A stretch of 20,675 nucleotides of DNA from Candidatus Heimdallarchaeota archaeon. Its GTDB lineage: Archaea; Asgardarchaeota; Heimdallarchaeia; JABLTI01. Made by a program: the position numbers and the translations under genes. This document shows positions 2 through 18,760 of this stretch, in pieces. The notes below the pieces were generated by a model, which worked only from the letters and a program-made list of their open reading frames with translations, was not told where the DNA came from and ran no database searches. The stretch's first letter is position 1. The number at the start of each line of letters is the position of its first letter. The DNA is taken from NCBI GenBank assembly GCA_030614005.1, contig JAUWKS010000057.1, positions 1 to 20,675 of the forward strand, written 5' to 3'.

Positions 2-2014
2 GACAATCTCAAGATTTACTTCAATGGCTGAAAGATAGACTTTGTTTTCACTTACATCAAAACTTGTTAGAAATTCATCACAGCTGAAACTTCCTTCAAG
101 ATAAGGTGAGTTCCTATCCTCAAAATTGATGAAATAAAGACATTTTCCCCTATCTAACGCGTAAATAATATCATTACTAATTACAATCTCAGAAAGTCCA
201 TATTCTGTATAGGGAACTATTTGTGAGAATCTAAAAGTTTCAACTGGTATTAATGGATTTGTAATGTTAAATGCATATGTGTCATATCTTGTCGAAACGA
301 AGGCATAATTATCTGAGACATGAAGATTATAAATAGAAGTCGATAAATTAGTGGGTGTTTGAGCTATCTGAGAAAAATTTTGGGATTCACATAAATATAT
401 TGTCAAGTTTAAGTAATTTATTATATAAAGATAATTATCTTGAAAATCAAATTCGTAAAAGAATCCAAAATCTATTAGTTCAACCAATTCAAAATTAGTT
501 TTAGTGCTCAGATCATACACTCCGATAATTTCAGGAATAGAAATATGCTGTTTTTTATAGGAAGCAATTAAATAATCCCCACAGATTTGCATTGAAATGG
601 GTCCAAAGCCATTTGAGTCCGCTAAAATGCTCTCAGTCTGCAAAAGAACTGGATTTTTTAAATCAGAAAAATCAATAATATGAATATCCCCTTCTCCTGC
701 ATTTTGAGTATATACATAAGCTAATTCACTTCTGATTTGAACAAATATACAATGTTTTCCACTGAGAATTCTACTTCTAAATATTGGTTTATCAAAATTA
801 TTAATTTGATAGATTTCTAAGCCACTGTAACTATTGGCAATAAGAACAGTTTTGCCACTAATAGCAACATCATACCCGCGACCTGAAAGATAGTAAATTG
901 AAACAAATGTAGGATTTTGATGATCAAGAAGCGAATAAACTTCTATGCCTTTATCTCTATTAAAAAGAAAAAGGAAATTGCTTATTAGTTGTTGGATTTC
1001 ATAATCACCTGCATTATTATTTCTGGATATCAGAGTGATTTCTGTTGGATTATAAATATCAAAAACATGAATGCCAGTTTCTTGGTCAAGAACATATGCA
1101 AGAGATTCATCGATATCAATTTGATTGAAAATTTTTGTGTTATCCGTTGAATAATCAAGTAGAGTTGGATTGGATGGATCCGAACAATCAATAGCAAATA
1201 CTTGACCGCCTGTAGTAACAGTATAAGCAATATTTCCCGAAACAGAAATATCAGTAAAAGTGCCGTTAATATAGAAGGTTGAATTAAAAATTCCTAGTTG
1301 AACCGGAGCAGTAAAATCGGATATATCTACTATCTCAAATGAGTCATCATACATTAGATACACGTAATCATTTTCAAGATAGATATTTATTATACTAGCA
1401 GCGATTGTTCCATCATATTTGTTAAGATATTTTGGTGAAGATATAGTAGATATATCAAGTAGTACTAACGCACTCCTATCACATCCATATAAAATGTCAT
1501 CATTTATAATACAATCATGTAAATGGACAACATTGCTAATATGATCATTAAAAATTATCTGAGGTTTTATCAAATTAGAAAAGTCAATTATTGCTATTCC
1601 TGTAAATAAGAAATTAACAACTAGTAGATTGTTTATTGCAATTATACCGTTAAGATGATTTGGATAACCGAAATCGACTGTAGATATGTATTTAGGTTTT
1701 TTAGGATCCGAATAATCAAAAGCTAAAATACTAAAATCTGTCGAAATATAAGCTACTTTTTTATTAGAAAATTCTGCTGCAGAAAAATCCCAAATAGTCT
1801 CCCCGATGTTAGAATCATATTCATTCAATTTTGTACAATTTACTCCTGTGTATGAATTATCACCAAAATAGGAATCTGAATCGGGAGATGAAAGTACTGG
1901 TTTTAATGCTATTCCAGTAGCCGAAGGAATAATTGATGTATATAGAAAATTAGTAGCTATTAAACCAATAAGAAGAAGTGATAAAAATCTCTTAGTTGTA
2001 AGGATTTCTGTCAT
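2..2014 (-). CDS. LVIVD-repeat beta-propeller surface protein, paralogue 1 (3' end truncated by the window edge)
   Basis: I translated the minus strand by hand. It is open from ATG 2014 (MTEILTTKRFLSLLLIGLIATNFLYTSIIPS...) to the edge (...YLSAIEVNLEIV) with no stop. GGAGAG lies 10 nt upstream. It has an N-terminal hydrophobic segment and repeats such as FEIVDISDFTAP, IHIIDFSDLKNP and LVLLDISTISSP, and is collinear with 2179..4389. Confidence 0.9.
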   Translation of the reverse strand, partial: MTEILTTKRFLSLLLIGLIATNFLYTSIIPSATGIALKPVLSSPDSDSYFGDNSYTGVNCTKLNEYDSNIGETIWDFSAAEFSNKKVAYISTDFSILAFDYSDPKKPKYISTVDFGYPNHLNGIIAINNLLVVNFLFTGIAIIDFSNLIKPQIIFNDHISNVVHLHDCIINDDILYGCDRSALVLLDISTISSPKYLNKYDGTIAASIINIYLENDYVYLMYDDSFEIVDISDFTAPVQLGIFNSTFYINGTFTDISVSGNIAYTVTTGGQVFAIDCSDPSNPTLLDYSTDNTKIFNQIDIDESLAYVLDQETGIHVFDIYNPTEITLISRNNNAGDYEIQQLISNFLFLFNRDKGIEVYSLLDHQNPTFVSIYYLSGRGYDVAISGKTVLIANSYSGLEIYQINNFDKPIFRSRILSGKHCIFVQIRSELAYVYTQNAGEGDIHIIDFSDLKNPVLLQTESILADSNGFGPISMQICGDYLIASYKKQHISIPEIIGVYDLSTKTNFELVELIDFGFFYEFDFQDNYLYIINYLNLTIYLCESQNFSQIAQTPTNLSTSIYNLHVSDNYAFVSTRYDTYAFNITNPLIPVETFRFSQIVPYTEYGLSEIVISNDIIYALDRGKCLYFINFEDRNSPYLEGSFSCDEFLTSFDVSENKVYLSAIEVNLEIV
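1281..1385. repeat. 105-bp tract identical to 3653..3757 (shared between the two LVIVD paralogues)
   Basis: Direct base-by-base comparison from GAATTAAAAATTCCTAG to TTCAAGATAGATA showed no mismatch. Confidence 0.85.
1738..1865. repeat. 128-bp tract matching 4116..4243 with one mismatch (1801 C vs 4179 T)
   Basis: Direct base-by-base comparison. Confidence 0.85.
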
Positions 2015-2178
2015 ATTAGTTTACTCTCCATTTATGTTTCTACTGTGAGGAATCGTAGGAGATTGAAAATCAAATTCACCTATTCCTATTAGTCATTGGT
2101 CTTTTGAATATTAAACAATTTAGTATTTACATAAATAACCGTCAAAATCAAAAAATGATGATGGTCTTAAACAAGAGA

Positions 2179-4389
2179 TTAATATTCTACTTCTGTATCC
2201 GGGGTTTCGACAGATTTTGCTTTCTCAGAAGCTCTCCTAATTTTTCTTCTTCTTAGAATTAATGTCAATGCAGCTATACCAAAAACAAAACTACCAGTTA
2301 TAACTAAAATAATAATACCTCGTTGTATTATAAAACGAGTTAATTGGACAATCTCAAGATTTACTTCCAAGGCTGAAAGATAGACTTTATTTTCACTTAC
2401 AACAAAACTTGTTATGCTTTCATTACAGCTGAAGATTCCTTCAAGATATGGAGAGTTTCTATCCTCAAAATTGATGAAATAAAGATTACTTCCCCTACTA
2501 CCTGATACGTAATTCCTCTCTAATACGTAAATAATATCAGCACTAACTATTACCTCTTTATAACCACGTTTTGAATGGAGAGCTATTTGTGAGAATCTAA
2601 ATGTTTCAACAGGTGAAAATGGATTTGTTATATTAAATACATGTGTGTCAGATACTGTCGAAACGAAAGCAAAATTATCTGAAATATGAAAGTTATAAAT
2701 ATATGACACTAAATTTAGAGGTGTTTGAGATATAAGAGATAAATTATAAGGTTCGTATGAAAATATCGAAAAATTTTCGGAATCTATTAAGTAAAGATTA
2801 TTATTTTTATAAGCAAAATTAAAAAAGTATCCAAGTTCTATTTGTTCAACCAATTCAAAATTTGTTTTAGTAGACAAATCATACACTCTTAGAATTTTAG
2901 GAGAATACCAAGGAATCACTGAATAGGAAGCTATTAAGAAATCACCACAGACCTGAATGAAAAAAGGATCTCTTTTTAGATTATTTATTTCCACTAAAAT
3001 GCTCTCAGTCTGCAAAAGAACCGGATTTTCTAAATCAGAAAAGTCAACAATATGAACATTTGCTTCCCAGTCATTATCGCTATATACATAAGCTAATTCA
3101 CCTCTAATTTGAACAAATATGCAATGTTTTCCACTGAGAATTCTACTTCTAAATATTGGTTTATCAAAATTATTAATATGATAGATTTCTAAGCCGCTAA
3201 AACCATTGGCAATGAGTACCGTTTTGCCACTAATAGCAACATCATACCCGCAACCTGAAAGGAGGTAAATTGAAACAAATGTAGGATTTTGATGGTCAAG
3301 AAGCGAATAAATTTCTATGCCTTCATTTATATTAAAAAGAAAAAGGTAATCGCTTATTAGTTGTTGGGTTCTATAATTACCGGCATTATAATCTCTGGAT
3401 ATCAGAGTGATTTCTGTTGGATTGTAAATATCAAAAACATGAATACCAGTTTTTTGGTCAAGGACATATGCAAGAGATTCAACGATATTAATTTGATTGA
3501 AAATTGTTGTGTTATCCATTGAATAATCAAGTAGACTTGGATTGGATGGATCCGAACAATCAATAGCAAATACTTGACCACCTGTAGTAACAGTATAAGC
3601 AATATTTCCCGAAACAGAAATATCAGTAAAAGTGCCATTTATATTGTTGGTAGAATTAAAAATTCCTAGTTGAACCGGAGCAGTAAAATCGGATATATCT
3701 ACTATCTCAAATGAGTCATCATACATTAGATACACGTAATCATTTTCAAGATAGATACTTACTATACTAGTAAAATTAGTGATTGTCCCTTCATATTTGT
3801 TAAGATATTTTGGAGAAGATATAGTAGATATATCAAGTAGTATTAACGCATTCCAATCCCGCCCATATAAAATGTCATCTTTTATAATACAATCATCTAA
3901 ATTGCTAACATTACTAATTTGACCATTAAATATTATCTGAGGTTTTTTCAAATTTGAAAAGTCAATTATTGCTATTCCTGTATATGAGAAATCTACAATA
4001 AGTAGATTGTTTATTGCATCTATATTGTAAATATAATTTGAATAACCGAAATCGATTGTAGATATGTATTTAGGTTTATTATGATCCGAAAAATCAAAAG
4101 CTAAAATACTATTACCTGTCGAAATATAAGCTACTTTTTTATTAGAAAATTCTGCTGCAGAAAAATCCCAAATAGTCTTCCCGATGTTAGAATCATATTC
4201 ATTCAATTTTGTACAATTTACTCCTGTGTATGAATTATCACCATAGATGGAATCTGAATCGGGAGTTGAAAATACTTGTTTTAATGCTATACCAGTAATA
4301 GAAGGAATAATTGATGTATATAGAAAATTAGTTGCAAATAAAAGAATTAGAATGATAGAAAATTTCTTAGTTGATATAATTCTTATCAA
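2179..4389 (-). CDS. LVIVD-repeat beta-propeller surface protein, paralogue 2, with C-terminal TM helix and basic tail
   Basis: ORF track gives 2179..4566. It contains repeated L/I-x-I/V-V/I-D-x-S-x-P units and ends in GIIILVITGSFVFGIAALTLIL-RRRKIRR. The start is placed at TTG 4389 because GGAGAG..ACTAAT sits at the same spacing as before the paralogue's ATG; ATG 4413 is an alternative. Confidence 0.88.
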   Translation of the reverse strand: MIRIISTKKFSIILILLFATNFLYTSIIPSITGIALKQVFSTPDSDSIYGDNSYTGVNCTKLNEYDSNIGKTIWDFSAAEFSNKKVAYISTGNSILAFDFSDHNKPKYISTIDFGYSNYIYNIDAINNLLIVDFSYTGIAIIDFSNLKKPQIIFNGQISNVSNLDDCIIKDDILYGRDWNALILLDISTISSPKYLNKYEGTITNFTSIVSIYLENDYVYLMYDDSFEIVDISDFTAPVQLGIFNSTNNINGTFTDISVSGNIAYTVTTGGQVFAIDCSDPSNPSLLDYSMDNTTIFNQINIVESLAYVLDQKTGIHVFDIYNPTEITLISRDYNAGNYRTQQLISDYLFLFNINEGIEIYSLLDHQNPTFVSIYLLSGCGYDVAISGKTVLIANGFSGLEIYHINNFDKPIFRSRILSGKHCIFVQIRGELAYVYSDNDWEANVHIVDFSDLENPVLLQTESILVEINNLKRDPFFIQVCGDFLIASYSVIPWYSPKILRVYDLSTKTNFELVEQIELGYFFNFAYKNNNLYLIDSENFSIFSYEPYNLSLISQTPLNLVSYIYNFHISDNFAFVSTVSDTHVFNITNPFSPVETFRFSQIALHSKRGYKEVIVSADIIYVLERNYVSGSRGSNLYFINFEDRNSPYLEGIFSCNESITSFVVSENKVYLSALEVNLEIVQLTRFIIQRGIIILVITGSFVFGIAALTLILRRRKIRRASEKAKSVETPDTEVEY

Positions 4390-4568
4390 ATTAGTAATCC
4401 TCTCCTTTTTCATTTTGTTGTACCATATAAACAAAACCCACTTGAAAATGATAATCTTTATTTTATAAAAATTTACTGTTTTAGTATTTTTACTGAAATG
4501 TCCACCTAAACAAAAAATCTGAAGTAAAAACTTTTGAAAAAGAGAGTTAGGAGTGAACAACTTCAAAA

Positions 4569-6122: not shown

Positions 6123-7466
6123 TTATCTACCACTAGCAAACTTAGTAGGGTTAAGAAGAACCATAGGTGATTTCATTCCACCCTCAATAAGAAGATCTTT
6201 TCCAACTAATTTGATATTTTTCATAATATCATAGACAGTTGTTCCAAGCATAGTATTTTTAACCGGGAATTTTATTTCACCTTTTTCTACCCAAAATCCA
6301 ACATCTACTTGTTGGCTGATGTTTGTACCAGCCATTGAAAATATTGGACTTTCCATATAAATTCCAGTACCAAGTTCTGCAAAAAGCTCATCTTTTGATG
6401 CAGTTCCAGGTTCAATTTGAATTTGTGTAAGGCTTGGTTTTGGAATTCCACCATATCCTTGTTTTGTTGCACTACCAGTATTTGGAATATCTAGTTTCTT
6501 GGATGTATAAACATCGCTGAGATAGGAAAGTAATGTTCCTTTATCTACAATAGTGATCTTTTGTGTTGCTGTACCTTCGTCATCGAAACAACGGCTGCTT
6601 GAGCCTGCAGTTTCAAGGGGATTATCAATAACGGTTAATTCCGGACTAGCAATTTCTTCTGCAAGTCTATCGTTAAAGAAAGCTGTTCCTTGAATAATAT
6701 TGTAAGCAGAAACACCTTTAGAGAGTATTCCACCAACAGTTTGACGAGTAGCTCTTTTGTCAATTAACAGAGGATATTTACCAGAATCAATTTTTTGTCC
6801 TCCAAGATTGTTAAGTGCTTTATCTGCGGCTTTATGACCTATTTCAGCTGGATCAATATCTTTGAGAGAACGAGCAAAACCATATTCATAGCCAACACCA
6901 ATATCATCGTCTTTGACTATTTTATTATTGATGTAAACAAGCATAACAGAACCTTCTGCTTCTGCAAGAACACCATTTGAATTGACTATAACTTTGCTGC
7001 CAACAGTCAGTCCAACACTTCCACTAACATTCAAAGTAGATTCTTTTTCTAGGGAAGCATTCAATGCTTGAATAGCTGTTTCAACTAGTTTATCACTACT
7101 AAGTGTGGCTAATTCTTTATTGTATAACCCTTTAACTTCAGGATAAGCAGATGCTTTTGATGCAAATCCAATATTGTCTGGGTTGGGACTAGACACTTTG
7201 GCTAAAGAAACAGCATCTTTGACCATTGCATCTAAGAGACTATCATCAAATTGAGTTGAAGTGCTTAAACCAATAGCTTTGTTAATTAAAACGCGCAAGC
7301 CAATACCAGTTTGACTTTTACTATTTGCTTTAACAATACTGGATTCTTCAAGATTGATTGATAGTTGTTTTCCTTGGATAAGGACCACTTCAGAATGTTC
7401 TGCACCAAGTTTTTGAGCCATTTTATTTACTTTTTCAGCAAGAGCTACGATAGTATTATCTGCCAT
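6123..7466 (-). CDS. pmbA: PmbA/TldE family protein (non-catalytic partner, no HExxH)
   Basis: GIGLRVL near the N-terminus, SSRCFDDEGTATQK, and GEIKFPVKNTMLG near the C-terminus. ATG 7466 (MADNT) follows GGAGG and sits immediately after the tldD stop. Confidence 0.88.
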   Translation of the reverse strand: MADNTIVALAEKVNKMAQKLGAEHSEVVLIQGKQLSINLEESSIVKANSKSQTGIGLRVLINKAIGLSTSTQFDDSLLDAMVKDAVSLAKVSSPNPDNIGFASKASAYPEVKGLYNKELATLSSDKLVETAIQALNASLEKESTLNVSGSVGLTVGSKVIVNSNGVLAEAEGSVMLVYINNKIVKDDDIGVGYEYGFARSLKDIDPAEIGHKAADKALNNLGGQKIDSGKYPLLIDKRATRQTVGGILSKGVSAYNIIQGTAFFNDRLAEEIASPELTVIDNPLETAGSSSRCFDDEGTATQKITIVDKGTLLSYLSDVYTSKKLDIPNTGSATKQGYGGIPKPSLTQIQIEPGTASKDELFAELGTGIYMESPIFSMAGTNISQQVDVGFWVEKGEIKFPVKNTMLGTTVYDIMKNIKLVGKDLLIEGGMKSPMVLLNPTKFASGR

Positions 7467-7467
7467 T

Positions 7468-8886
7468 TTATCTTCCTCCAACAACTAAATCTTTCACTGC
7501 AAGTGCAGGACCACTACCAGTAACAGGTATCCATTGACCACCTTTACCACAAGAACCGTTGAATGCAGCATGTTCTAGTTTTCCGACACCAATAGTATTA
7601 GATAAAACTTCCATAATCATACCACTCATAGAAACGTTTTGAGTGATTGCTTTTTGTTTGCCTTTTTCGATTATGTAACCATTTTGAGATGAGAACATAA
7701 ATTGTCCTTTAGCTGGATTAACATAGCCTCCATATGACTTTTCGAGGTACATTCCATCACCAATGATTTCAAATAATTCTTCAAGGCTCTTATCACTACC
7801 TTCGACATAGGTATTACCCATTCGGGCAAGTGGTGGAAAACGAAAGTCCATTGCTCTACCAGAGCCATTGGGTTTTTGACCAAGGATAGAAGCAGTTTCA
7901 AGTGTGTGGAAAAATTCTTTTAGAATACCTTTTTCAACCAATTTACGTGGAACGGCTTTTGTTCCTTCAGAATCATGAGCAAAAGAACCTCGTAAACCTG
8001 GAATAGTTGGATCATCGGTTATGTTAATCTCTTCAACACCAACTTTAGTATTCAATTTGTCATGAAGAATCGATCTTTTAGTAATAATGCCATCAGCCTC
8101 GCATGCATGCCCAAAGGCTTCATGAACGAATACTCCAACTAAGCTTGGATCCATAACTAAATTCATTTTACCACTAATAGGTTTATCAGCAGAAAGAAGC
8201 CCAATTGCTTTTGTACCAACTTCTTTACCTATTTCATCTACATTGAAAGCCATAATAGTCTTTATACCAATTGATGAAGCAATATTTTCTCCAACATTTT
8301 GTTGTAGATTTCCTTCTCGAGCAACAGCTCCTCCGGACAATCGAAAAACACCTGATTCTGTTGAAACATTTGTACCATTCGTTGAAATAATATCTTCAGA
8401 ATTAATTGTTTCTAAATAAATTGCTTGAGAAGTTGCTATTCTTTTATCTACTTCTCTGATGCTTTTTTCAAAATCCTGTGTGATTTTCATTTTCTCTTCA
8501 ATGGAAATATCCTTTGGATCAAGATCAAAACTTATTTTTGTTTCTCCTTGAGTTGAGAATTCAGGATTTATTTTCCGAGGCTCTTTAACCTTTTCTGAGG
8601 CAACTTTTGCCATCGATACTGCTGTTTTAAGACTTTTTGCAAGCGAATTCTTTGATATATCAGCAGTAGTTGCCAGACCCCATGCTCCTCCAACCAAAAC
8701 CCGTACTGCGGCTCCCCCCATTCTATTTGAGGTTACTTCTTCTGTAATTGCATTTTTAACAATCATATTCATTGATTCTGATTGTTGGAAACGAATATCA
8801 GCAAAACCGCCCGGACCAAGATCTATATCATCCAAAATTTTTCGGGCATAATCTTTCATAATAGTATCGTCATAACTTTTATACAT
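7468..8886 (-). CDS. tldD: TldD family metalloprotease
   Basis: HEAFGHACEAD zinc motif, FAHDSEG, GSGRAMDFRFPPLARMGNTY and SCGKGGQWIPV (conserved Cys). Confidence 0.92.
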   Translation of the reverse strand: MYKSYDDTIMKDYARKILDDIDLGPGGFADIRFQQSESMNMIVKNAITEEVTSNRMGGAAVRVLVGGAWGLATTADISKNSLAKSLKTAVSMAKVASEKVKEPRKINPEFSTQGETKISFDLDPKDISIEEKMKITQDFEKSIREVDKRIATSQAIYLETINSEDIISTNGTNVSTESGVFRLSGGAVAREGNLQQNVGENIASSIGIKTIMAFNVDEIGKEVGTKAIGLLSADKPISGKMNLVMDPSLVGVFVHEAFGHACEADGIITKRSILHDKLNTKVGVEEINITDDPTIPGLRGSFAHDSEGTKAVPRKLVEKGILKEFFHTLETASILGQKPNGSGRAMDFRFPPLARMGNTYVEGSDKSLEELFEIIGDGMYLEKSYGGYVNPAKGQFMFSSQNGYIIEKGKQKAITQNVSMSGMIMEVLSNTIGVGKLEHAAFNGSCGKGGQWIPVTGSGPALAVKDLVVGGR

Positions 8887-11502: not shown

Positions 11503-13230
11503 TTAGAACTTTTTCCTCTTCTTTTTTGTAAGAACGATTATTGCAACTGTAGCAAATAGAATAACATAAATATTATTCACTGGTACAAAGGCTGAATAAC
11601 CAAAAGGTGTTGTTGGTAAAGTTGATTCATTATCGTCATAAATTAATGGATCTCGTCCTAAAAGAATCTCTTCTCCATCATCAACACCATCTCCGTCTGT
11701 ATCTGCAGTAAAAACAGAAGTGTGGTAAATTGTTGCTTCAAGATTATTCGCTAAATTATCATTGTCTAAATCATCATATCTATCAAACACAAGAGGATTT
11801 AAACCAACCATAATTTCCCACCCATCAAGAAATCCGTCTGAATCGGTATCTGCGTTTGTTTCATTGGTGCAATAAAATTTCTCAGTTAATTCATCTAACA
11901 AATCACCATCATAATCACCGAAACCTGTGTGATAATTTGACCCAAGAAAACATGGCCAAACACTTATACCAGAATCTTGTGAAGTATTTATTTCTAAACA
12001 TTTGACTTTGTCATTATATTCTCCACAGAAAATATTGTTCTTTCCATCTAAATTCAAATCACCTACTAATGGGTTGCTGTACGAAAAATTATGTATTGGA
12101 TAGGCATCTAATACTGTTCCATTATAATCTAAACAAGTTATCTCGTAATTCACTACAATTATTTCTTGATTTCCATCACCGGTTAAATCTGACAAAACAA
12201 CAGAAGATTTTGGTGAATGAGAACCTGCGTCAGTTGTCCAATTTAATGAACCATTACTACTAAAACAATATAACTTGTTAGATGATGACTGAATGAGAAT
12301 TTCTAGTGAGCCTTCATTATCTATATTTGCAATAACAGGTGAACCTTCAAATGTTTCATACTCTGTAGCAGTTGCTGTTACTGACCAAAGTAAACTTCCA
12401 TCAGAATCATAATTACAGAATCTTTCTCCAGTACCAACATAAATCTCATGTTTCCCATCTAAGTCCACATCATATATCGCTGGAGATGAACCTGTGCTTA
12501 ATTCTCCAATTAAAGCTGTTTTCCAAAGAAAATCTCCTTGATCATCAATGCAATAAATATACCCATCAATACAAGTGAAAACAATTTCATATTCAGGATC
12601 GGAATCAACATTTAGCAGTGATGGAGTACAATACACATCGTTATCAGTTGTATATTCCCATCGACTAAAATCATCAGCATTGATACAGATAATTCCAAAT
12701 CTTGTACCAATAATTATTTCAAAAACACCATCTAAATCTTGATCACCAATACAAGGAGAAGAAGTATGAAATGGATAGATACCATAATTTTCGGAAATTT
12801 TCACTGCTTTTTCTTTATTTCCTTTAAAATCGTAAATAAAAATAGTATCTGAATCAAGTCCACCCAGAGTAATTATTTCTAATTGTGAATCATTATCAAT
12901 ATCAACAATACAAGGTGTAGAAATATACTTGAAAGATTCAGATTGTGACCAGATTGTCTTTCCTGTTCTTCCATTTAAACAGTATAAATAAGATCCCGAA
13001 AGAAAAACTATGTCCAGAAACCCATCTCCATTTAGATCTGCATAGTGAGGAGAGCAACCTTCCAATTTTAATTCTCTTTCCCATGTTAAGCTTAATGATA
13101 TTGTATCATCAGAATTTATTCCGTTGTTAAAGTTGTCAAAATTGACGTGGTTACTACTAACACTCAAATCGACAGAAAATGCTCCAAAAAGAATAATTGT
13201 TGCAATCAATAATCCAATTTTTTTCCCCAT
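11503..13230 (-). CDS. FG-GAP/VCBS-like repeat beta-propeller surface protein with DxDxDG calcium-binding (TSP3-like) repeats and C-terminal TM anchor
   Basis: Seven D-x-D/N-x-D-G-like repeats (DLNGDGFLDI, DIDNDSQLEI, DQDLDGVFEI, NVDSDPEYEI, DVDLDGKHEI, NIDNEGSLEI, DLTGDGNQEI) plus DLNLDGKNNI, then DYDGDLLDE, DTDSDGFLDGWE, DLDNDNLAN and DTDGDGVDDGEE. It has an N-terminal signal and a C-terminal TM plus KKKRKKF. Likely start ATG 13230; the track gives 13260. Confidence 0.85.
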   Translation of the reverse strand: MGKKIGLLIATIILFGAFSVDLSVSSNHVNFDNFNNGINSDDTISLSLTWERELKLEGCSPHYADLNGDGFLDIVFLSGSYLYCLNGRTGKTIWSQSESFKYISTPCIVDIDNDSQLEIITLGGLDSDTIFIYDFKGNKEKAVKISENYGIYPFHTSSPCIGDQDLDGVFEIIIGTRFGIICINADDFSRWEYTTDNDVYCTPSLLNVDSDPEYEIVFTCIDGYIYCIDDQGDFLWKTALIGELSTGSSPAIYDVDLDGKHEIYVGTGERFCNYDSDGSLLWSVTATATEYETFEGSPVIANIDNEGSLEILIQSSSNKLYCFSSNGSLNWTTDAGSHSPKSSVVLSDLTGDGNQEIIVVNYEITCLDYNGTVLDAYPIHNFSYSNPLVGDLNLDGKNNIFCGEYNDKVKCLEINTSQDSGISVWPCFLGSNYHTGFGDYDGDLLDELTEKFYCTNETNADTDSDGFLDGWEIMVGLNPLVFDRYDDLDNDNLANNLEATIYHTSVFTADTDGDGVDDGEEILLGRDPLIYDDNESTLPTTPFGYSAFVPVNNIYVILFATVAIIVLTKKKRKKF

Positions 13231-13342
13231 ATCTACATCAAGATAAATAATAATTACCATGATATATAATCATTTTCAAATTAATGCTTCAGAAGCTTTA
13301 ATCTACAAGTGCTTTTCAATTTTCTAGTAGAAAAGATTTTTT

Positions 13343-15793
13343 TTAATATTTATAATGAGTTTCAATAAAGCCTGCTTGTAAACTTGAGAGTAGCAGTTGT
13401 ATGCCATCTGATAATTCCAATAATGTTTTACTTTCAAAATCTCTTTTTTGTAGGATTTGAATTTCTTCGAATAGTTCTGGATGGAATTGCAATGTATAAT
13501 CTCTTTTTATCATATTTGTTTTAGGATTATAATAATAAATGACCATACCAGCTATTTCAGTTAAATAATCTCCATCTTTACTTTCAATGCTATAGAGAGT
13601 TGAGCTTGGTATTTCTAATCCAAATGGTAATGTTGTTAGTTCACTTAAACCCTCATCTTCTAGTAATAATTCGAAATTTTTCTGTGAAAAATCAGCAATT
13701 TTCTTGAATGCCCAATTGAAAAATAGCACTGCTTCTTCATTTACTTCATCACCGTGTAGCATAATAATATCCAAGGTCTCTAATGAGTAAAGATCTTCTA
13801 ACATTCCAGTTTGGAATATAGCTGTATCTTGATATTCATCTAGCATTTCCTTTGAATTTTTGGAAGCTTCTGGTCTGAATTTCACTAGTTTTTTTAACCC
13901 AAATTCAGGTAGTTCATTTTTCTTTACAGCAAAATATTGATCATTTATACTATTAGCAATGATTTCTTCGTTTCGATTCTTAATAGCCAAATTATTTCCT
14001 TGCGATTTTATTTCACCTATTGTTTTCAAAAACTCCTCGCTTACAATTTTACTCTTTTTAGAGATTATTTTGGCAATTTTCTCTGCTTTTTTGCACAATT
14101 CTACAATGTAATCCCTGAATGTTTCTGCTACACCTTGGTGTCCTAAACAAATGAAAAGTGCAGGACTGGATCCAGGGTTATTTCTCGCTAGCATTATTGA
14201 ACGTAGCAAATGCAAATAGTCTTTTCTTTCAAAATTTCCATTTGTAATCTCAGTAAAGCTTTTGCTATCATAAAGTGATTGTCTTCCACCTTCCACGATG
14301 ACATATCTAAAAGATCGTAGAAATTCTCCCAACGATTCGCCAACACAATGCTCTTTGACTTTATCGAGAAATTTGGCATAACTCATTTCAGATAATTCAA
14401 GAATGACAACATTCCAATCAAGTATCTCTTTAGTTATTGTTGCAAAGTTTTTTGATGCATCAATCAATTCTCCCCATTGATTTGATCCAATAACAGTATC
14501 TGGTTTTAAAATAACGGCCCATTTACTTCTTTGATTTGGATTACTAAAATGACTTTTGTATGCTTTTTCGAATTCTGCAATAGAACTAATAGTTATTTGT
14601 TGAGTTTCTTTTTTGTTCAAGAAACGTTGAATTTTCTGCAATGAAATTTCAAATGGTAAATTGAAGAAAGGATCTTTTAGTGGTATTGGGTATCCAATGA
14701 GTTTTTCATATTTCTTTCTGCTAGTATAGGATCTAAAGTCAACACCTGCAAGAAAAGCTATTTTGATGAAAATATCTGCAGGAATTTTCATTTTCTTAGC
14801 GAATTTCTCTAGCTCTTTTTTATGACCTAAAAGATAAGAAAGTTTTATCTGACTGTGAGCAATGCTAAAATCACCAGAAGGTATAGCACCTTTCATTATC
14901 GGTAACCAAGCATTTTGGTAGACAAAATCTTGAGTACCAATGGGCGTTTGGGAGGATAAAATAACGATCTTACCATTCGCAATTGCTTGTTCAATTGCTG
15001 GTAAAGGCGAATGACCGGAATTGATATCAGTGTTTATTGTTCCACTTCCATAGGCATTTAATATTATTCCATCTGCAGAAGCAAATCGTTTCCGGTACTC
15101 TTCTTCAGTCATCATTGGAGTGGTATTTACAACAATTATTTTTTGATTAAATTTGGTGTCGCAAAAAGTGGTAAATCCAACATTCTGACATTCTTTAGCA
15201 ATTCTTTTACAAATTTGAAACCAAGAATCCAAAATCAAATCTGAAGAATCCTTGGACATCAAAGAGATTGATTCGAATTCATGAAAAAAACCAGCGAACT
15301 TTTGAGTAATATAATCTGAAATTAGATTTGCTGTTGGAGTTAACACTCCATCTTCATTGTGCTCAGATTCGATAGTTCCTCCAGTTCTAATAAGAAATAA
15401 TTTATCCAATTTTCGGTTCAAATTCAAAGGATAGGCTCTTCCACGAATGAAAATCTCATCTGAAGAAATCCTTGCTAATTCTTCTCCACGAAAAGCATCT
15501 GGGGACCATTTATCGATTTTCCAGAGATCATCTTGAAAAGCTGCTTGACCATTGTTAAATACAACAAAAATATTTGGTCCTGTAAGTTGTGTTAGTAATT
15601 TGATGGAATTCTCAACATTAGGATATACATCAGAAGAAGAAAATTGCATGCTAAAAGGCACTTGAGATCCTGTAATAGCTACATTTGCTGGGAGATTTTT
15701 GAGAGTATATCTAATAGCACTCAAAGCCCAAGACATAGAATCTGTTCCATGAGTTAAAAGAAAACCGATTTTTTTGGAGTATTTTCGCACCAT
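13343..15793 (-). CDS. permuted L-asparaginase/glutaminase fused to a class I glutamine amidotransferase domain
   Basis: Numbered on the 820-aa track ORF: THGTD 18-22, TGSQ 45-48, Lys96, TGGTI 141-145, DSS 186-188, then the asparaginase C-domain (GIILNAYGSG, SSQTPIG, GAIPSGD, KLSYLLG). GATase1 motifs follow: VEGGRQSLYD, ICLGHQ (Cys553), LHGDEV and QFHPE (His775, Glu777). Start is ATG 15793 or GTG 15805. Confidence 0.85.
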   Translation of the reverse strand: MVRKYSKKIGFLLTHGTDSMSWALSAIRYTLKNLPANVAITGSQVPFSMQFSSSDVYPNVENSIKLLTQLTGPNIFVVFNNGQAAFQDDLWKIDKWSPDAFRGEELARISSDEIFIRGRAYPLNLNRKLDKLFLIRTGGTIESEHNEDGVLTPTANLISDYITQKFAGFFHEFESISLMSKDSSDLILDSWFQICKRIAKECQNVGFTTFCDTKFNQKIIVVNTTPMMTEEEYRKRFASADGIILNAYGSGTINTDINSGHSPLPAIEQAIANGKIVILSSQTPIGTQDFVYQNAWLPIMKGAIPSGDFSIAHSQIKLSYLLGHKKELEKFAKKMKIPADIFIKIAFLAGVDFRSYTSRKKYEKLIGYPIPLKDPFFNLPFEISLQKIQRFLNKKETQQITISSIAEFEKAYKSHFSNPNQRSKWAVILKPDTVIGSNQWGELIDASKNFATITKEILDWNVVILELSEMSYAKFLDKVKEHCVGESLGEFLRSFRYVIVEGGRQSLYDSKSFTEITNGNFERKDYLHLLRSIMLARNNPGSSPALFICLGHQGVAETFRDYIVELCKKAEKIAKIISKKSKIVSEEFLKTIGEIKSQGNNLAIKNRNEEIIANSINDQYFAVKKNELPEFGLKKLVKFRPEASKNSKEMLDEYQDTAIFQTGMLEDLYSLETLDIIMLHGDEVNEEAVLFFNWAFKKIADFSQKNFELLLEDEGLSELTTLPFGLEIPSSTLYSIESKDGDYLTEIAGMVIYYYNPKTNMIKRDYTLQFHPELFEEIQILQKRDFESKTLLELSDGIQLLLSSLQAGFIETHYKY

Positions 15794-15805
15794 CTCTTTG
15801 GTCAC

Positions 15806-15857
15806 AACCGTTTTTTATAAAAATGAAACACAATAAGAAAATAACCTACTAACGGTT
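15806..15857 (-). promoter_or_regulatory. TATA box flanked by an inverted repeat, upstream of the asparaginase-GATase gene
   Basis: TTTATAAA on the minus strand 21-28 nt upstream of ATG 15793. AACCGTT (15806-15812) and AACGGTT (15851-15857) form an inverted repeat around it. Confidence 0.5.
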
Positions 15858-15872
15858 ATTTATCTTTCTTGT

Positions 15873-16898
15873 TTACTTGCTGTTTTTGAAGACATAAGCA
15901 ATTAAATTAGCAATAATATTAGCATAAAAACTAGATGCAATAGCAAGTTCTTCTGTGCCATCTACTCTACTAAAAATTAGCTTGACAGAACCTTTCTTAT
16001 AGGAAACGTTTTGGACAAATTTAACAGCTCGAGCCCAAACTTTTCCATCATCTGAACCAAAAAGAATTCTTGAGTCAGTGATAAAACAATCACAAGGAAT
16101 ATTACAATTAAAAGCTCCACTAACTTTCTCAACATTCCCCCAGAAGAGCACTTTCTCAGTTTTCCAATCAAAACCGGGTATGACAATCTTTATTCGATCT
16201 TCTAAATCGATAATGGATGTTTCACGAATGATCCTAACGCCAGTATCGCTTTTCGCTCTTTCTTCTAAAGCAGGTAGCTTCTTAGTTAATTCCAACAATT
16301 CTTGTAATAATCTATTAGAGAATCTTATCATTGTTTGAGAGCCATTTGTTCCTTTGATAAACAAGGCTTCAGTTTTCCCTAAAATAAGTGCTAATGGTTC
16401 ATCGCTAGCAATGCTATGAACTTTACATTTTTTTGTTGATAAAACATCACGTAAATCCTTAGAGATTTCTAGATTGTCATCTATCCAAGCTTCAGGGAAT
16501 TCATTCTCTTTTATGATAGTAATAACTGAACTTAGATTATTAAAAATCATAACAGGTGAAACGCTACTCTTTTGAGCTGATTTGTCTTGTAATTTAGAAA
16601 TGCCTTTTTTAACACTAGTGATGGTGGAAACTATCGAGTCGATAGCGTTGTCAATAGTATCTTCTGGTGGAAGAGCTTTAAAGAGCATTCCTTTTTCTGC
16701 TGGAACTTTCATTATGAACCCCAGCTCTACTAAACTATCTAAAACAGAGTAAACCTTTGCTCGTGGCACTCCAGATTCTTTTGCTATCAAGTAGGCAGTA
16801 GCTTCACCTAACACAAAACTCGCAATGTATACTTGCGATTGATACCTTTGTAATCCTATTTGAGTTAACCCGTCGATTAGCTTATTGTCAATTTGCAT
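15873..16898 (-). CDS. TrmB-family transcriptional regulator with a C-terminal PH-like domain candidate
   Basis: The N-terminal wHTH LTQIGLQRYQSQVY...ATAYLIAKESGVPRAKVYSVLDSLVELGFI is typical of TrmB. The C-terminal ~100 aa (CFITDSRILF...GSVKLIF...terminal helix) resemble a PH/GRAM-like fold. ATG 16898 is preferred; GTG 16907 is an alternative. Confidence 0.85.
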   Translation of the reverse strand: MQIDNKLIDGLTQIGLQRYQSQVYIASFVLGEATAYLIAKESGVPRAKVYSVLDSLVELGFIMKVPAEKGMLFKALPPEDTIDNAIDSIVSTITSVKKGISKLQDKSAQKSSVSPVMIFNNLSSVITIIKENEFPEAWIDDNLEISKDLRDVLSTKKCKVHSIASDEPLALILGKTEALFIKGTNGSQTMIRFSNRLLQELLELTKKLPALEERAKSDTGVRIIRETSIIDLEDRIKIVIPGFDWKTEKVLFWGNVEKVSGAFNCNIPCDCFITDSRILFGSDDGKVWARAVKFVQNVSYKKGSVKLIFSRVDGTEELAIASSFYANIIANLIAYVFKNSK

Positions 16899-16928
16899 TG
16901 CTATCACTTTTAAGCTTGTAATTTACGT

Positions 16929-17939: not shown

Positions 17940-18317
17940 CTATTTCTTTTTACTCAATATTTCTTTGATTGTTTCTACTAGCTCATCAAGATTGGCTTTA
18001 TCGATGAATTTTACAGCACCCGCATCAAGGCAATCTTCTTCATCTTTAGAAAAACCTGAAACACAGATTATTGGAGTTTGAATGCCCTTTTGTCGTATTA
18101 TTTCCACAGCTTCATGACCATTTAGTTGTGGTAGAGAATTATCACAAATAATAATATCCCAATTCTTTTCAGTCTCTAATAATTTTAATAGCTTATCCTT
18201 ACTATCAACCCAATCATAATTAAGATTAGAATACTCTTGTTTAATATGATGTTGCATTAAGATAACATCATCCTCCAAGTCTTCAATAAACAAGATATTT
18301 GTAATTTCATTCATCAC
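17940..18317 (-). CDS. single-domain response regulator (receiver)
   Basis: ILFIED, IIICD (phosphoacceptor), LPQLNG, CVSG and GAVKFIDK. ATGA overlap with the upstream receiver gene. Confidence 0.88.
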   Translation of the reverse strand: MMNEITNILFIEDLEDDVILMQHHIKQEYSNLNYDWVDSKDKLLKLLETEKNWDIIICDNSLPQLNGHEAVEIIRQKGIQTPIICVSGFSKDEEDCLDAGAVKFIDKANLDELVETIKEILSKKK

Positions 18318-18760
18318 TCATCACAAGTTAATTTTGCTGTTTGATTTAGAACTAACCAGTAAAGACCAAGTTGTTTTACAGCATCTATAAACTGATCAAA
18401 ATCAACAGGCTTTGAAATATACGAGTTCGCTCCTAAACAGTAGCTTTTAACAACATCGCTTTCTTCTTTTGACGTTGTTAAAATTACAACTGGTAGCAGT
18501 TTTGTTCGAGGGTTTTTTCGAATTCGTTCTAATACTTGTAATCCATCCAATTTTGGCATTTTAAGATCAAGCAAAACCAATTCAGGCATTATGTTTTTAT
18601 CACGATTTTTATACTTGCCTTCTGCAAAAAGGTAGTTTAGTGTTTCTTCTCCGTCTTTAACTACTACAAGTTCATTTAGAATATTGCTCTTTTTGAATGC
18701 TCTTTGAGTTAAAAGCACATCGTCGGGATTATCCTCAGCTAGAAGGATTATTTTATTCAT
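18314..18760 (-). CDS. single-domain response regulator, Rcp1-like
   Basis: ILLAEDNPDD, VLLDLKMPKLDG, PVVILTTS, GANSYISKPVDF and the YWLVLN tail typical of Rcp1-type receivers. Confidence 0.92.
   Translation of the reverse strand: MNKIILLAEDNPDDVLLTQRAFKKSNILNELVVVKDGEETLNYLFAEGKYKNRDKNIMPELVLLDLKMPKLDGLQVLERIRKNPRTKLLPVVILTTSKEESDVVKSYCLGANSYISKPVDFDQFIDAVKQLGLYWLVLNQTAKLTCDE

What the first reader, a model, noticed from the sequence alone, without database searches (positions are those of the whole stretch)
15185..15793. Asparaginase catalytic domain with its two halves in swapped order (domain-internal circular permutation)
In bacterial-type asparaginases and GatD the order is TGGTI (nucleophile Thr, E. 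coli AnsB Thr12), then DS(S/Q), then HGTD (Thr89/Asp90), TGSQ/TGAM, the catalytic Lys (Lys162) and the C-domain. Here the protein starts almost directly with GFLLTHGTD-TGSQ-SD-N-VVFN-Lys96-DAF. Only then come LFLIRTGGTI (141-145) and KDSSDL..W (185-195), followed by a normal C-domain. So the order is B-A-C instead of A-B-C, in one unbroken frame, with all catalytic residues retained. No N-terminal piece is missing: an in-frame TAA lies at 15815-15817, a TATA box sits 21-28 nt upstream of the ATG, and the TrmB gene ends at 15873. I know of no described natural permutation of this fold. It would re-tether the mobile Thr-bearing lid loop and could alter activation or substrate range.
Basis: partly seen in the sequence, partly recalled or inferred. 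Interest (0 to 1): 0.85.

Follow-up and report, generated by a model that had tools for sequence, protein, structure and literature searches.

The report
Naturally circularly permuted asparaginase family
This Asgard-archaeal gene encodes an asparaginase-type enzyme whose catalytic domain has its two halves in swapped order; the swap is real, is kept in a whole family of archaeal and bacterial proteins that I could not find described in print, and is predicted to give the normal fold and active site.

Summary
The ORF at 13343-15793 (- strand; 816 aa from ATG 15793, 820 aa from GTG 15805) matches Pfam Asparaginase_N twice in inverted model order. Model positions 72-185 match aa 8-118 and positions 1-74 match aa 135-207. 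A normal Asparaginase_C domain follows, then a family-specific helical tail and an atypical class-I glutamine amidotransferase domain.

It is not a mis-assembly. Contigs from three studies bridge both junctions. More than 100 homologues from independent assemblies keep the same order (Asgard archaea, Acidobacteriota, Bacteroidota, WOR-3, Delongbacteria). In a tree the permuted proteins form one branch with support 100.

The genome also has two ordinary GatD genes, so this protein is an additional enzyme. Its function is inferred, not shown: a threonine-nucleophile amidohydrolase, perhaps an ammonia donor, because one relative is fused to NAD synthetase.

I found no paper that describes the permutation. 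This scan met the family before in three other genomes. I class it as a new variant of a known kind.

The parts
13343..15793 (-). Whole gene: permuted asparaginase module, helical tail and class-I GATase-like domain. It has 816 aa from ATG 15793; the ORF listing extends it to GTG 15805 (820 aa, P0001).
   Evidence: Homologue P0002 (99% identity) has 816 aa.
15814..15821 (-). TATA-like box TTTATAAA, 21-28 nt upstream of the ATG. It suggests a leaderless or short-leader archaeal transcript. An in-frame TAA lies at 15815-15817.
   Evidence: Read directly from the sequence. No promoter test was done.
15425..15781 (-). B half of the asparaginase N-domain (aa 9-127). It holds the HGTD strand (T21, D22), TGSQ, SD/N63, the strand with catalytic K96, and beta-hairpins. 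It corresponds to PF00710 model positions 72-185.
15170..15424 (-). A half of the asparaginase N-domain (aa 128-212). It holds the beta1 strand ending in TGGTI (nucleophile T144), the lid loop 145-161, helix alpha1, beta2 with D186-S187-S188, and helix alpha2. It corresponds to PF00710 model positions 1-74.
14771..15142 (-). Asparaginase C-terminal domain (aa 222-345), in the normal position after the N-domain.
   Evidence: PF17763, E 1.6e-13. It aligns together with the B half on 5OT0 and 1WLS.
14606..14770 (-). Family-specific helical tail (aa 346-400; consensus FLSG..FR...SR ... DPF). It is conserved in all architectures of the permuted family, including the stand-alone forms.
   Evidence: alignment A1; model helices 343-352, 360-370 and 385-396 at pLDDT of about 98
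13346..14524 (-). Atypical class-I glutamine amidotransferase domain (about aa 428-820) with long inserts. It carries Cys553 (ICLGHQG) and His775/Glu777 (FHPE).
   Evidence: PF00117 scores 17.9-20.5 bits, below the cut-off of 22.8. AF2 pLDDT 88. Foldseek hits GuaA, CTP synthase and PabA GATases. Alignment A2.
15873..16907 (-). TrmB-family regulator gene directly upstream on the same strand. The same pairing occurs beside a 60%-identical homologue in another Heimdallarchaeota MAG.
   Evidence: The pairing is not seen beside P0022.

Best explanation
The gene encodes a member of a single-origin family of class-1 (bacterial/archaeal type) asparaginase/glutaminase homologues that I could not find described. 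In this family the N-terminal catalytic domain is circularly permuted. The half carrying HGTD, TGSQ and the catalytic Lys comes first. The half carrying the TGGTI nucleophile strand, the lid loop and the DSS substrate loop comes second. The C-domain then hangs from the end of helix alpha2 instead of from the usual inter-domain linker. The chain is threaded differently but folds into the ordinary asparaginase architecture and the ordinary intimate dimer. T144, T21, D22, K96 and S187 therefore line one pocket that is closed by the partner subunit's C-domain. I infer, without direct proof, that it is an active threonine-nucleophile amidohydrolase acting on an L-Asn- or L-Gln-like amide and releasing ammonia. 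In this Asgard protein the module is fused to an atypical class-I glutamine amidotransferase domain with an intact Cys-His-Glu triad. The product is therefore a two-headed amide hydrolase. It is an enzyme additional to the genome's two ordinary GatD proteins and is possibly controlled by the neighbouring TrmB regulator.
For: Shown:
- Pfam hits lie in inverted model order.
- HGTD precedes TGGTI by about 120-140 residues (about 122 in most) in 102 fetched homologues.
- 52 clusters at 50% identity match colinearly at E<1e-30. Canonical asparaginases begin at about 1e-18 and match in three out-of-order pieces.
- One ESM Atlas cluster of 125 bacterial proteins matches at TM 0.91 colinearly, against at most 0.59 for canonical clusters.
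- In a tree built after reordering the segments, 42 permuted and 58 canonical proteins split on one branch with SH-aLRT 100.
- G20, T21, D22, G46, D59, N63, G142, G143, T144, D186 and S187 are invariant. K96 is present in 41 of 42 sequences at 30-75% identity.
- The AF2 model has pLDDT 94 and pTM 0.93, with the expected secondary-structure elements in B-A-C order.
- The homodimer prediction scores 0.82 against 0.00 for the best of 3 controls. That mark was reached by 20 of 30 proteins solved as pairs of one chain and by 1 of 23 solved as single chains. The runs agree in at least 91% of contacts, and the partner's pLDDT is at least 87. Like complexes are solved, so the pass may reflect likeness. 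Its interface lists 21-23 and 96-101 (B half) and 185-192 (A half) against partner residues 250-260 and 285-298. Partner residue 256 touches 22, 186 and 188.
- Contigs from three studies bridge both junctions with no indel or joint.
- The genome has two GatD genes that pass the equivalog cut-offs, one of them beside GatE.

Inferred:
- The amidohydrolase activity itself.
- A possible ammonia-donor role, from a fusion to a NadE domain with an intact PP-loop in a Bacteroidales MAG, seen on 5 contigs.
Against: No activity was measured. The lid loop has no conserved Tyr at the place of EcAII Tyr25; the family has TGGTIE and G.L.P instead, so the catalytic details may differ. Its placement therefore rests on the model's confidence and on the dimer contacts. 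No conserved neighbouring gene points to a pathway. A second hydrolase domain in the same chain has no known parallel, and its purpose is unexplained. At least one family member (P0165) has lost all the motifs.
Confidence: 0.85

Rival explanations
1. The swapped order is an assembly or binning artefact: a chimeric contig that joins parts of one or two ordinary asparaginase genes.
For: The window comes from a metagenome-assembled genome of 126 contigs. Metagenome-assembled genomes can contain chimeric contigs.
Against: One 3408-base contig of run X2 covers the whole 14900-15900 stretch. Contigs of X1 and X5, from other studies, bridge the junction near 15180, and a contig of X5 also bridges the one near 15410, without joints, indels or loose ends. 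More than 100 homologues from independent assemblies, at 30-99% identity, have the same order. No remnant of a second copy of either half is present.
Confidence: 0.01
2. The permuted module is a catalytically dead scaffold or ligand sensor, a pseudo-enzyme. The real activity of this protein would lie in the class-I GATase domain.
For: The usual lid Tyr is not conserved. One relative (P0165) has lost all catalytic motifs. Many relatives are fused to receiver domains, as signalling proteins are.
Against: Both Thr residues, Asp, Lys and the DS loop are invariant or nearly so across 42 sequences at 30-40% identity. That level of conservation is expected for catalysis and not for a scaffold. The fusion to NadE fits a working ammonia source.
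Confidence: 0.1
3. The module is a dedicated glutaminase subunit that hands ammonia to a synthetase, as GatD does for GatE. It would not be a free catabolic asparaginase. In this protein it would work together with the fused GATase or with an unlinked partner.
For: There is a NadE fusion with an intact SGGKDS loop that passes TIGR00552. The nearest solved relatives include GatD.
Against: Only one such fusion cluster was seen. Most members stand alone or carry a receiver domain, and no synthetase gene is a conserved neighbour. The Asgard form carries a second glutaminase-type domain rather than a synthetase.
Confidence: 0.3

Closest known systems
Type I (cytosolic/archaeal) L-asparaginases, for example Thermococcus kodakarensis 5OT0, Pyrococcus horikoshii 1WLS and E. 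coli AnsA 2P2D
   Different: The order of the two halves of the N-domain is inverted. The C-domain is attached after helix alpha2. There is an extra conserved helical tail of about 55 aa. A conserved Glu follows TGGTI, and there is no conserved lid Tyr. The TIGR00519 score is 80 against a cut-off of 260.
GatD, the glutaminase subunit of archaeal GatDE (1ZQ1, 2D6F)
   Different: There is no GatD N-terminal domain. The GatD equivalog scores are 72-76 against cut-offs of 310-324. The genome already has two true GatD genes, one of them beside GatE. The domain is permuted.
Engineered circular permutants of Ntn-type (class 2) asparaginases, hASRGL1 and Taspase1
   Same: Each is a circular permutation in an enzyme that is called an asparaginase. 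These papers are the only hits for 'asparaginase' with 'circular permutation' or 'permuted' that concern an asparaginase-family enzyme.
   Different: They have a different fold (Ntn hydrolase). To my knowledge they were made in the laboratory to bypass autoproteolysis; I did not read these papers. They are neither natural nor related to the class-1 fold.
Triad class-I glutamine amidotransferase domains (GuaA subunit A 7D97, PabA 8RP0, CTP synthase 2V4U). This comparison concerns the C-terminal half of the protein only.
   Same: The fold is shared (TM by target up to 0.68), as are the nucleophile elbow C-L-G-H-Q and the H-P-E motif.
   Different: This domain is roughly twice as long because of large inserts. 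Its Pfam score is below the cut-off. It is fused to an asparaginase-type module instead of a synthetase. In other Asgard genomes it occurs as a stand-alone ORF of about 395 aa.

Membership tests
Class-1 L-asparaginase/glutaminase superfamily (PF00710 + PF17763) | TGGTI strand with the nucleophile Thr (EcAII Thr12) | tested here: met
   T144 is invariant in 42 of 42 sequences and T141 is present in 39 of 42.
Class-1 L-asparaginase/glutaminase superfamily (PF00710 + PF17763) | Second triad: HGTD Thr/Asp plus the catalytic Lys (EcAII Thr89, Asp90, Lys162) | tested here: met
   T21 and D22 are invariant and K96 is present in 41 of 42. K96 aligns with the catalytic Lys of 5OT0.
Class-1 L-asparaginase/glutaminase superfamily (PF00710 + PF17763) | Substrate-binding DS(S/T/Q) loop | tested here: met
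   D186 and S187 are invariant and S188 is present in 41 of 42.
Class-1 L-asparaginase/glutaminase superfamily (PF00710 + PF17763) | Both Pfam domains score above the gathering threshold | tested here: met
   PF00710 scores 77 bits against a cut-off of 22.5. PF17763 scores 51 bits against 34.6.
Class-1 L-asparaginase/glutaminase superfamily (PF00710 + PF17763) | Colinear order of the N-domain (TGGTI half before HGTD half) | tested here: not met
   Model positions 72-185 lie at aa 8-118 and positions 1-74 at aa 135-207. This is the finding itself.
Class-1 L-asparaginase/glutaminase superfamily (PF00710 + PF17763) | Intimate dimer with the active site closed by the partner's C-domain | tested here: inconclusive
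   This is a prediction only. The score is 0.82 against 0.00 for the best control. The mark was reached by 20 of 30 proteins solved as pairs of one chain and 1 of 23 solved as single chains. The contacts involve 21-23, 96-101 and 185-192 against partner residues 250-260 and 285-298. The pass may reflect likeness to solved dimers.
Class-1 L-asparaginase/glutaminase superfamily (PF00710 + PF17763) | Asn or Gln amidohydrolase activity | not testable with these tools
   This needs an enzyme assay.
Type I asparaginase (TIGR00519) / AnsA (NF006998) | Score above the curated cut-off | tested here: not met
   The scores are 80.4 against 260.5 and 53.3 against 376.
GatD (TIGR02153 / NF003217) | Score above the equivalog cut-off, the GatD N-terminal domain, and pairing with GatE | tested here: not met
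   The scores are 72-76 against cut-offs of 310-324. No extra N-terminal domain is present. The genome's true GatD genes lie elsewhere and score 551 and 512 bits, one of them next to GatE.
Class-I glutamine amidotransferase (PF00117), C-terminal half | Pfam gathering score | tested here: not met
   The score is 17.9-20.5 bits against a cut-off of 22.8.
Class-I glutamine amidotransferase (PF00117), C-terminal half | GATase fold with a Cys-His-Glu triad | tested here: met
   Foldseek hits GuaA, CTPS and PabA GATases at E down to 9e-6 and TM by target up to 0.68. C553 is kept in 18 of 21 sequences, and H775 and E777 are invariant.

The most novel reading that the evidence does not exclude
The permuted asparaginase module is a previously unrecognised, portable ammonia-generating (glutaminase/asparaginase) unit. 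In different lineages it has been wired to different controllers and users: receiver domains, NAD synthetase, and in Asgard archaea a second, class-I type glutaminase. On this reading the permutation created the free N-terminus next to the active-site face that makes such N-terminal fusions possible. The NadE fusion would then be a third kind of glutamine-dependent NAD synthetase.
Probability: 0.25. Interest if true: 0.75.

Novelty: new variant of a known kind. Interest (0 to 1): 0.62.

Why it matters
Class-1 asparaginases are among the best-studied drug enzymes and are used against leukaemia. As far as I could find, their chain topology has been treated as fixed. A natural, conserved permutation shows that the fold tolerates new termini between helix alpha2 and the HGTD strand, and also a different attachment point for the C-domain. 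This is directly useful for engineering fusions, tethers and switches. It also adds a whole family to the classification of asparaginases. That family includes receiver-regulated and synthetase-fused forms with unknown roles in nitrogen metabolism. Standard annotation labels its members only as 'asparaginase domain-containing' or 'hypothetical'. Pfam does find both halves, so the permutation can be detected systematically. The Asgard form, with two different amide-hydrolase chemistries in one chain, poses a clear biochemical question.

Tried and rejected
- **Non-sequential superposition of the A half on a solved asparaginase:** not possible. Model coordinates are not exposed, and Foldseek and VIA align sequentially.
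- **AlphaFold DB clusters:** the best TM by query was 0.55, with no colinear full-length match. This does not show that the family is absent from UniProt.
- **Scan of genome contigs:** Only five permuted loci (L011-L015) were recovered, so the scan says little about distribution.
- **Conserved gene neighbours:** none were found around the bacterial or archaeal homologues, apart from TrmB in two Heimdall genomes. The link to asparaginyl-tRNA genes noted in earlier finding e1-2511785 was not seen in the loci I read.
- **Expression:** no RNA holder was listed.
- **Cluster look-up for taxonomy of the non-Asgard GATase-fused members:** no names were returned.
- **Literature:** five searches and one paper checked gave nothing on a natural permutation of this fold. 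The library lacks most subscription journals.
- **Intermediate forms (A-B-A-C or tandem N-domains):** I looked among the weaker hits and found only fragments and one degenerate member.

Full report
**What is there**

The - strand carries one unbroken ORF at 13343..15805 (820 aa from GTG), kept as P0001. Upstream in frame lies TAA at 15815-15817. A TTTATAAA box lies 21-28 nt before ATG 15793, and the preceding TrmB-family ORF ends at 15873. A 99%-identical homologue has 816 aa, and most relatives start four residues later than P0001. The real start is therefore most likely ATG 15793.

**The permutation at sequence level**

Pfam finds Asparaginase_N (PF00710) in two stretches, plus Asparaginase_C. 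Scanned separately:
- aa 1-125 match model positions 72-185 (E 1.1e-14);
- aa 126-222 match model positions 1-74 (E 1.1e-7);
- aa 222-337 match PF17763.

A six-frame search of the whole genome gives the same two hits at 15452-15799 and 15185-15403. phmmer against PDB sequences aligns aa 9-123 to residues 73-186 of T. kodakarensis asparaginase, aa 215-340 to its residues 196-318, and, weakly, aa 135-198 to its residues 2-65. The motifs are HGTD 19-22, TGSQ 45-48, SD 58-59, K96, TGGTI 141-145 and DSS 186-188.

**It is not an artefact**

The stretch occurs in runs of five studies of cold-seep and marine sediments. One 3408-base contig covers 14900-15900 entirely. Contigs from two further studies bridge the junction near 15180, and one of these studies also bridges the junction near 15410, with no joint, indel or loose end.

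The independent evidence from homologues is stronger still:
- A search of 5.8 billion proteins returned about 66 proteins that cover 89-99% of aa 1-400 colinearly. In every one, HGTD precedes TGGTI by about 120-127 residues.
- An exhaustive HMMER search of 1.84 billion representatives found 52 clusters at E<1e-30, nearly all matching as one or two colinear stretches. Ordinary asparaginases appear only from about 1e-18 and match in three out-of-order pieces.
- With both sets fetched, 102 proteins show the permuted motif order.
- The ESM Atlas holds a bacterial cluster of 125 members (402 aa) that matches the model at TM 0.91 over 394 residues. Canonical clusters reach at most 0.59.

**A family with one origin and several architectures**

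For a tree I reordered the segments to A-B-C inside a script only. The 42 permuted and 58 nearest canonical proteins fall on the two sides of one branch with SH-aLRT 100, so the order changes only once on the tree.

Within the permuted side, the architectures form groups:
- stand-alone proteins of about 390-405 aa;
- an N-terminal receiver domain, about 540 aa;
- an N-terminal NAD synthetase (P0032), found on five contigs of a Bacteroidales MAG, with an intact SGGKDS loop and a pass of the nadE model;
- the C-terminal GATase-like form, about 770-840 aa, to which the window's protein belongs.

Named sources include Heimdall-, Thor- and Gerdarchaeota, Acidobacteria/Aminicenantes, WOR-3, Rikenellaceae, Bacteroidaceae and Delongbacteria. 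All of them are MAGs.

Among 300 genomes sampled from the window's own phylum, 13 have a strong match, and 7 of the 10 sampled genomes of its own family do. Three genomes of another genus carry only the GATase-like half, as a separate ORF of about 395 aa, and no permuted asparaginase was found in them. These three genomes are about 80% complete.

**Conservation and fold**

In alignment A1 (42 sequences, 28-75% identical to P0001), T21, D22, T144, D186 and S187 are invariant, together with several Gly. K96 is present in 41 of 42, H19 in 39 and T141 in 39. These are the counterparts of EcAII Thr89, Asp90, Thr12, Ser58 and Lys162. That correspondence follows from the alignments and from established knowledge of the family.

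AlphaFold2 with A1 gives pLDDT 94 and pTM 0.93. Only the lid region 141-160 is lower, at about 80. The secondary-structure elements run in the order expected for B, then A, then the C-domain, followed by three extra helices (343-396) that are conserved in the whole family.

I could not superpose the A half directly, because no coordinates are available. Indirect evidence comes from a homodimer prediction. It scored 0.82 against 0.00 for the best of three controls. That mark was reached by 20 of 30 proteins solved as pairs of one chain and by 1 of 23 solved as single chains. The runs agree in at least 91% of contacts, and the partner's pLDDT is at least 87. Because like dimers are solved, the pass may reflect likeness. 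The interface lists residues 21-23 and 96-101 of the B half and 185-192 of the A half against the partner's residues 250-260 and 285-298. Partner residue 256 (Asn in 34 of 42 sequences, in the G-x-G-N motif) touches 22, 186 and 188. The two halves therefore converge on one pocket that is closed by the other subunit's C-domain, as in canonical enzymes.

**What it probably does**

The genome has two ordinary GatD genes (551 and 512 bits), one of them next to GatE. The permuted protein is thus an additional enzyme and scores far below the GatD and type I cut-offs. Invariant catalytic residues argue for an active threonine-nucleophile amidohydrolase. The DSS loop and the C-domain N256/D293/Y296 motifs resemble those of type I enzymes that bind free L-Asn or L-Gln.

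The NadE fusion suggests that the module can serve as an ammonia source, and the receiver fusions suggest regulated activity. In the window's protein the C-terminal 390 residues form a class-I GATase fold (AF2 pLDDT 88; Foldseek hits to GuaA, CTP synthase and PabA GATases). It has Cys553 and His775/Glu777 and long inserts. Why two hydrolase chemistries sit in one chain is not explained.

No conserved operon partner was found. Only the upstream TrmB gene recurs, in one other Heimdall genome.

**Comparison with what is known, and novelty**

Five full-text searches and one paper checked gave no description of a natural permutation of the class-1 asparaginase fold. The relevant hits for 'circular permutation' concern Ntn-type enzymes (ASRGL1, EcAIII, Taspase1), which have another fold. 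No AlphaFold DB cluster representative matches colinearly.

This scan has met the family before in three other genomes (e1-2511785, e1-354015, e1-4661755), and the two follow-ups among them reached the same conclusion. The GATase fusion in this window was noted separately (e1-5383225).

I rate it a new variant of a known kind. The chemistry and the fold are classical, while the topology, the family and its fusions are new.

Noticed in passing
window 13346-14524 (-): The C-terminal half is an atypical class-I glutamine amidotransferase with an intact Cys-His-Glu triad and about 200 residues of inserts. The same domain occurs as a stand-alone ORF of about 395 aa in three Asgard genomes of another genus, next to bactofilin-like genes (L097 2803-3978, L098 448-1629).
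   Followed up: partly
G258:C55:210789-213208 (L096): A congener's copy of this gene matches with several in-frame stops (TGA, TAG and TAA), so it may be a pseudogene there.
   Followed up: no
L006 8001-9914 (Bacteroidales MAG GCA_017450585.1): This is a fusion of NAD synthetase and a permuted asparaginase (P0032, 637 aa). It lies convergent to a gene for the ATP-pyrophosphatase part of GMP synthase; no GATase Pfam family is listed for that product.
   Followed up: partly
window 17940-18760 (-): Two adjacent single-domain receiver (REC) genes lie about 2 kb from the permuted asparaginase gene. Bacterial relatives of the enzyme carry a fused receiver domain. A functional link was not tested.
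   Followed up: no
window 15812: Contigs of three runs read G instead of T at 15812, just upstream of the TATA-like box. Other differences from the window are single substitutions.
   Followed up: no
P0165 (345 aa, metagenomic): This member is colinear with the permuted family but lacks the HGTD, TGGTI and DS motifs. It may be a pseudo-enzyme offshoot.
   Followed up: no
window 6123-8886 (-): A tandem PmbA/TldD metallopeptidase pair lies here. Further along are LVIVD-repeat and FG-GAP beta-propeller genes (2-4566 and 11503-13260). None has an evident link to the finding.
   Followed up: no
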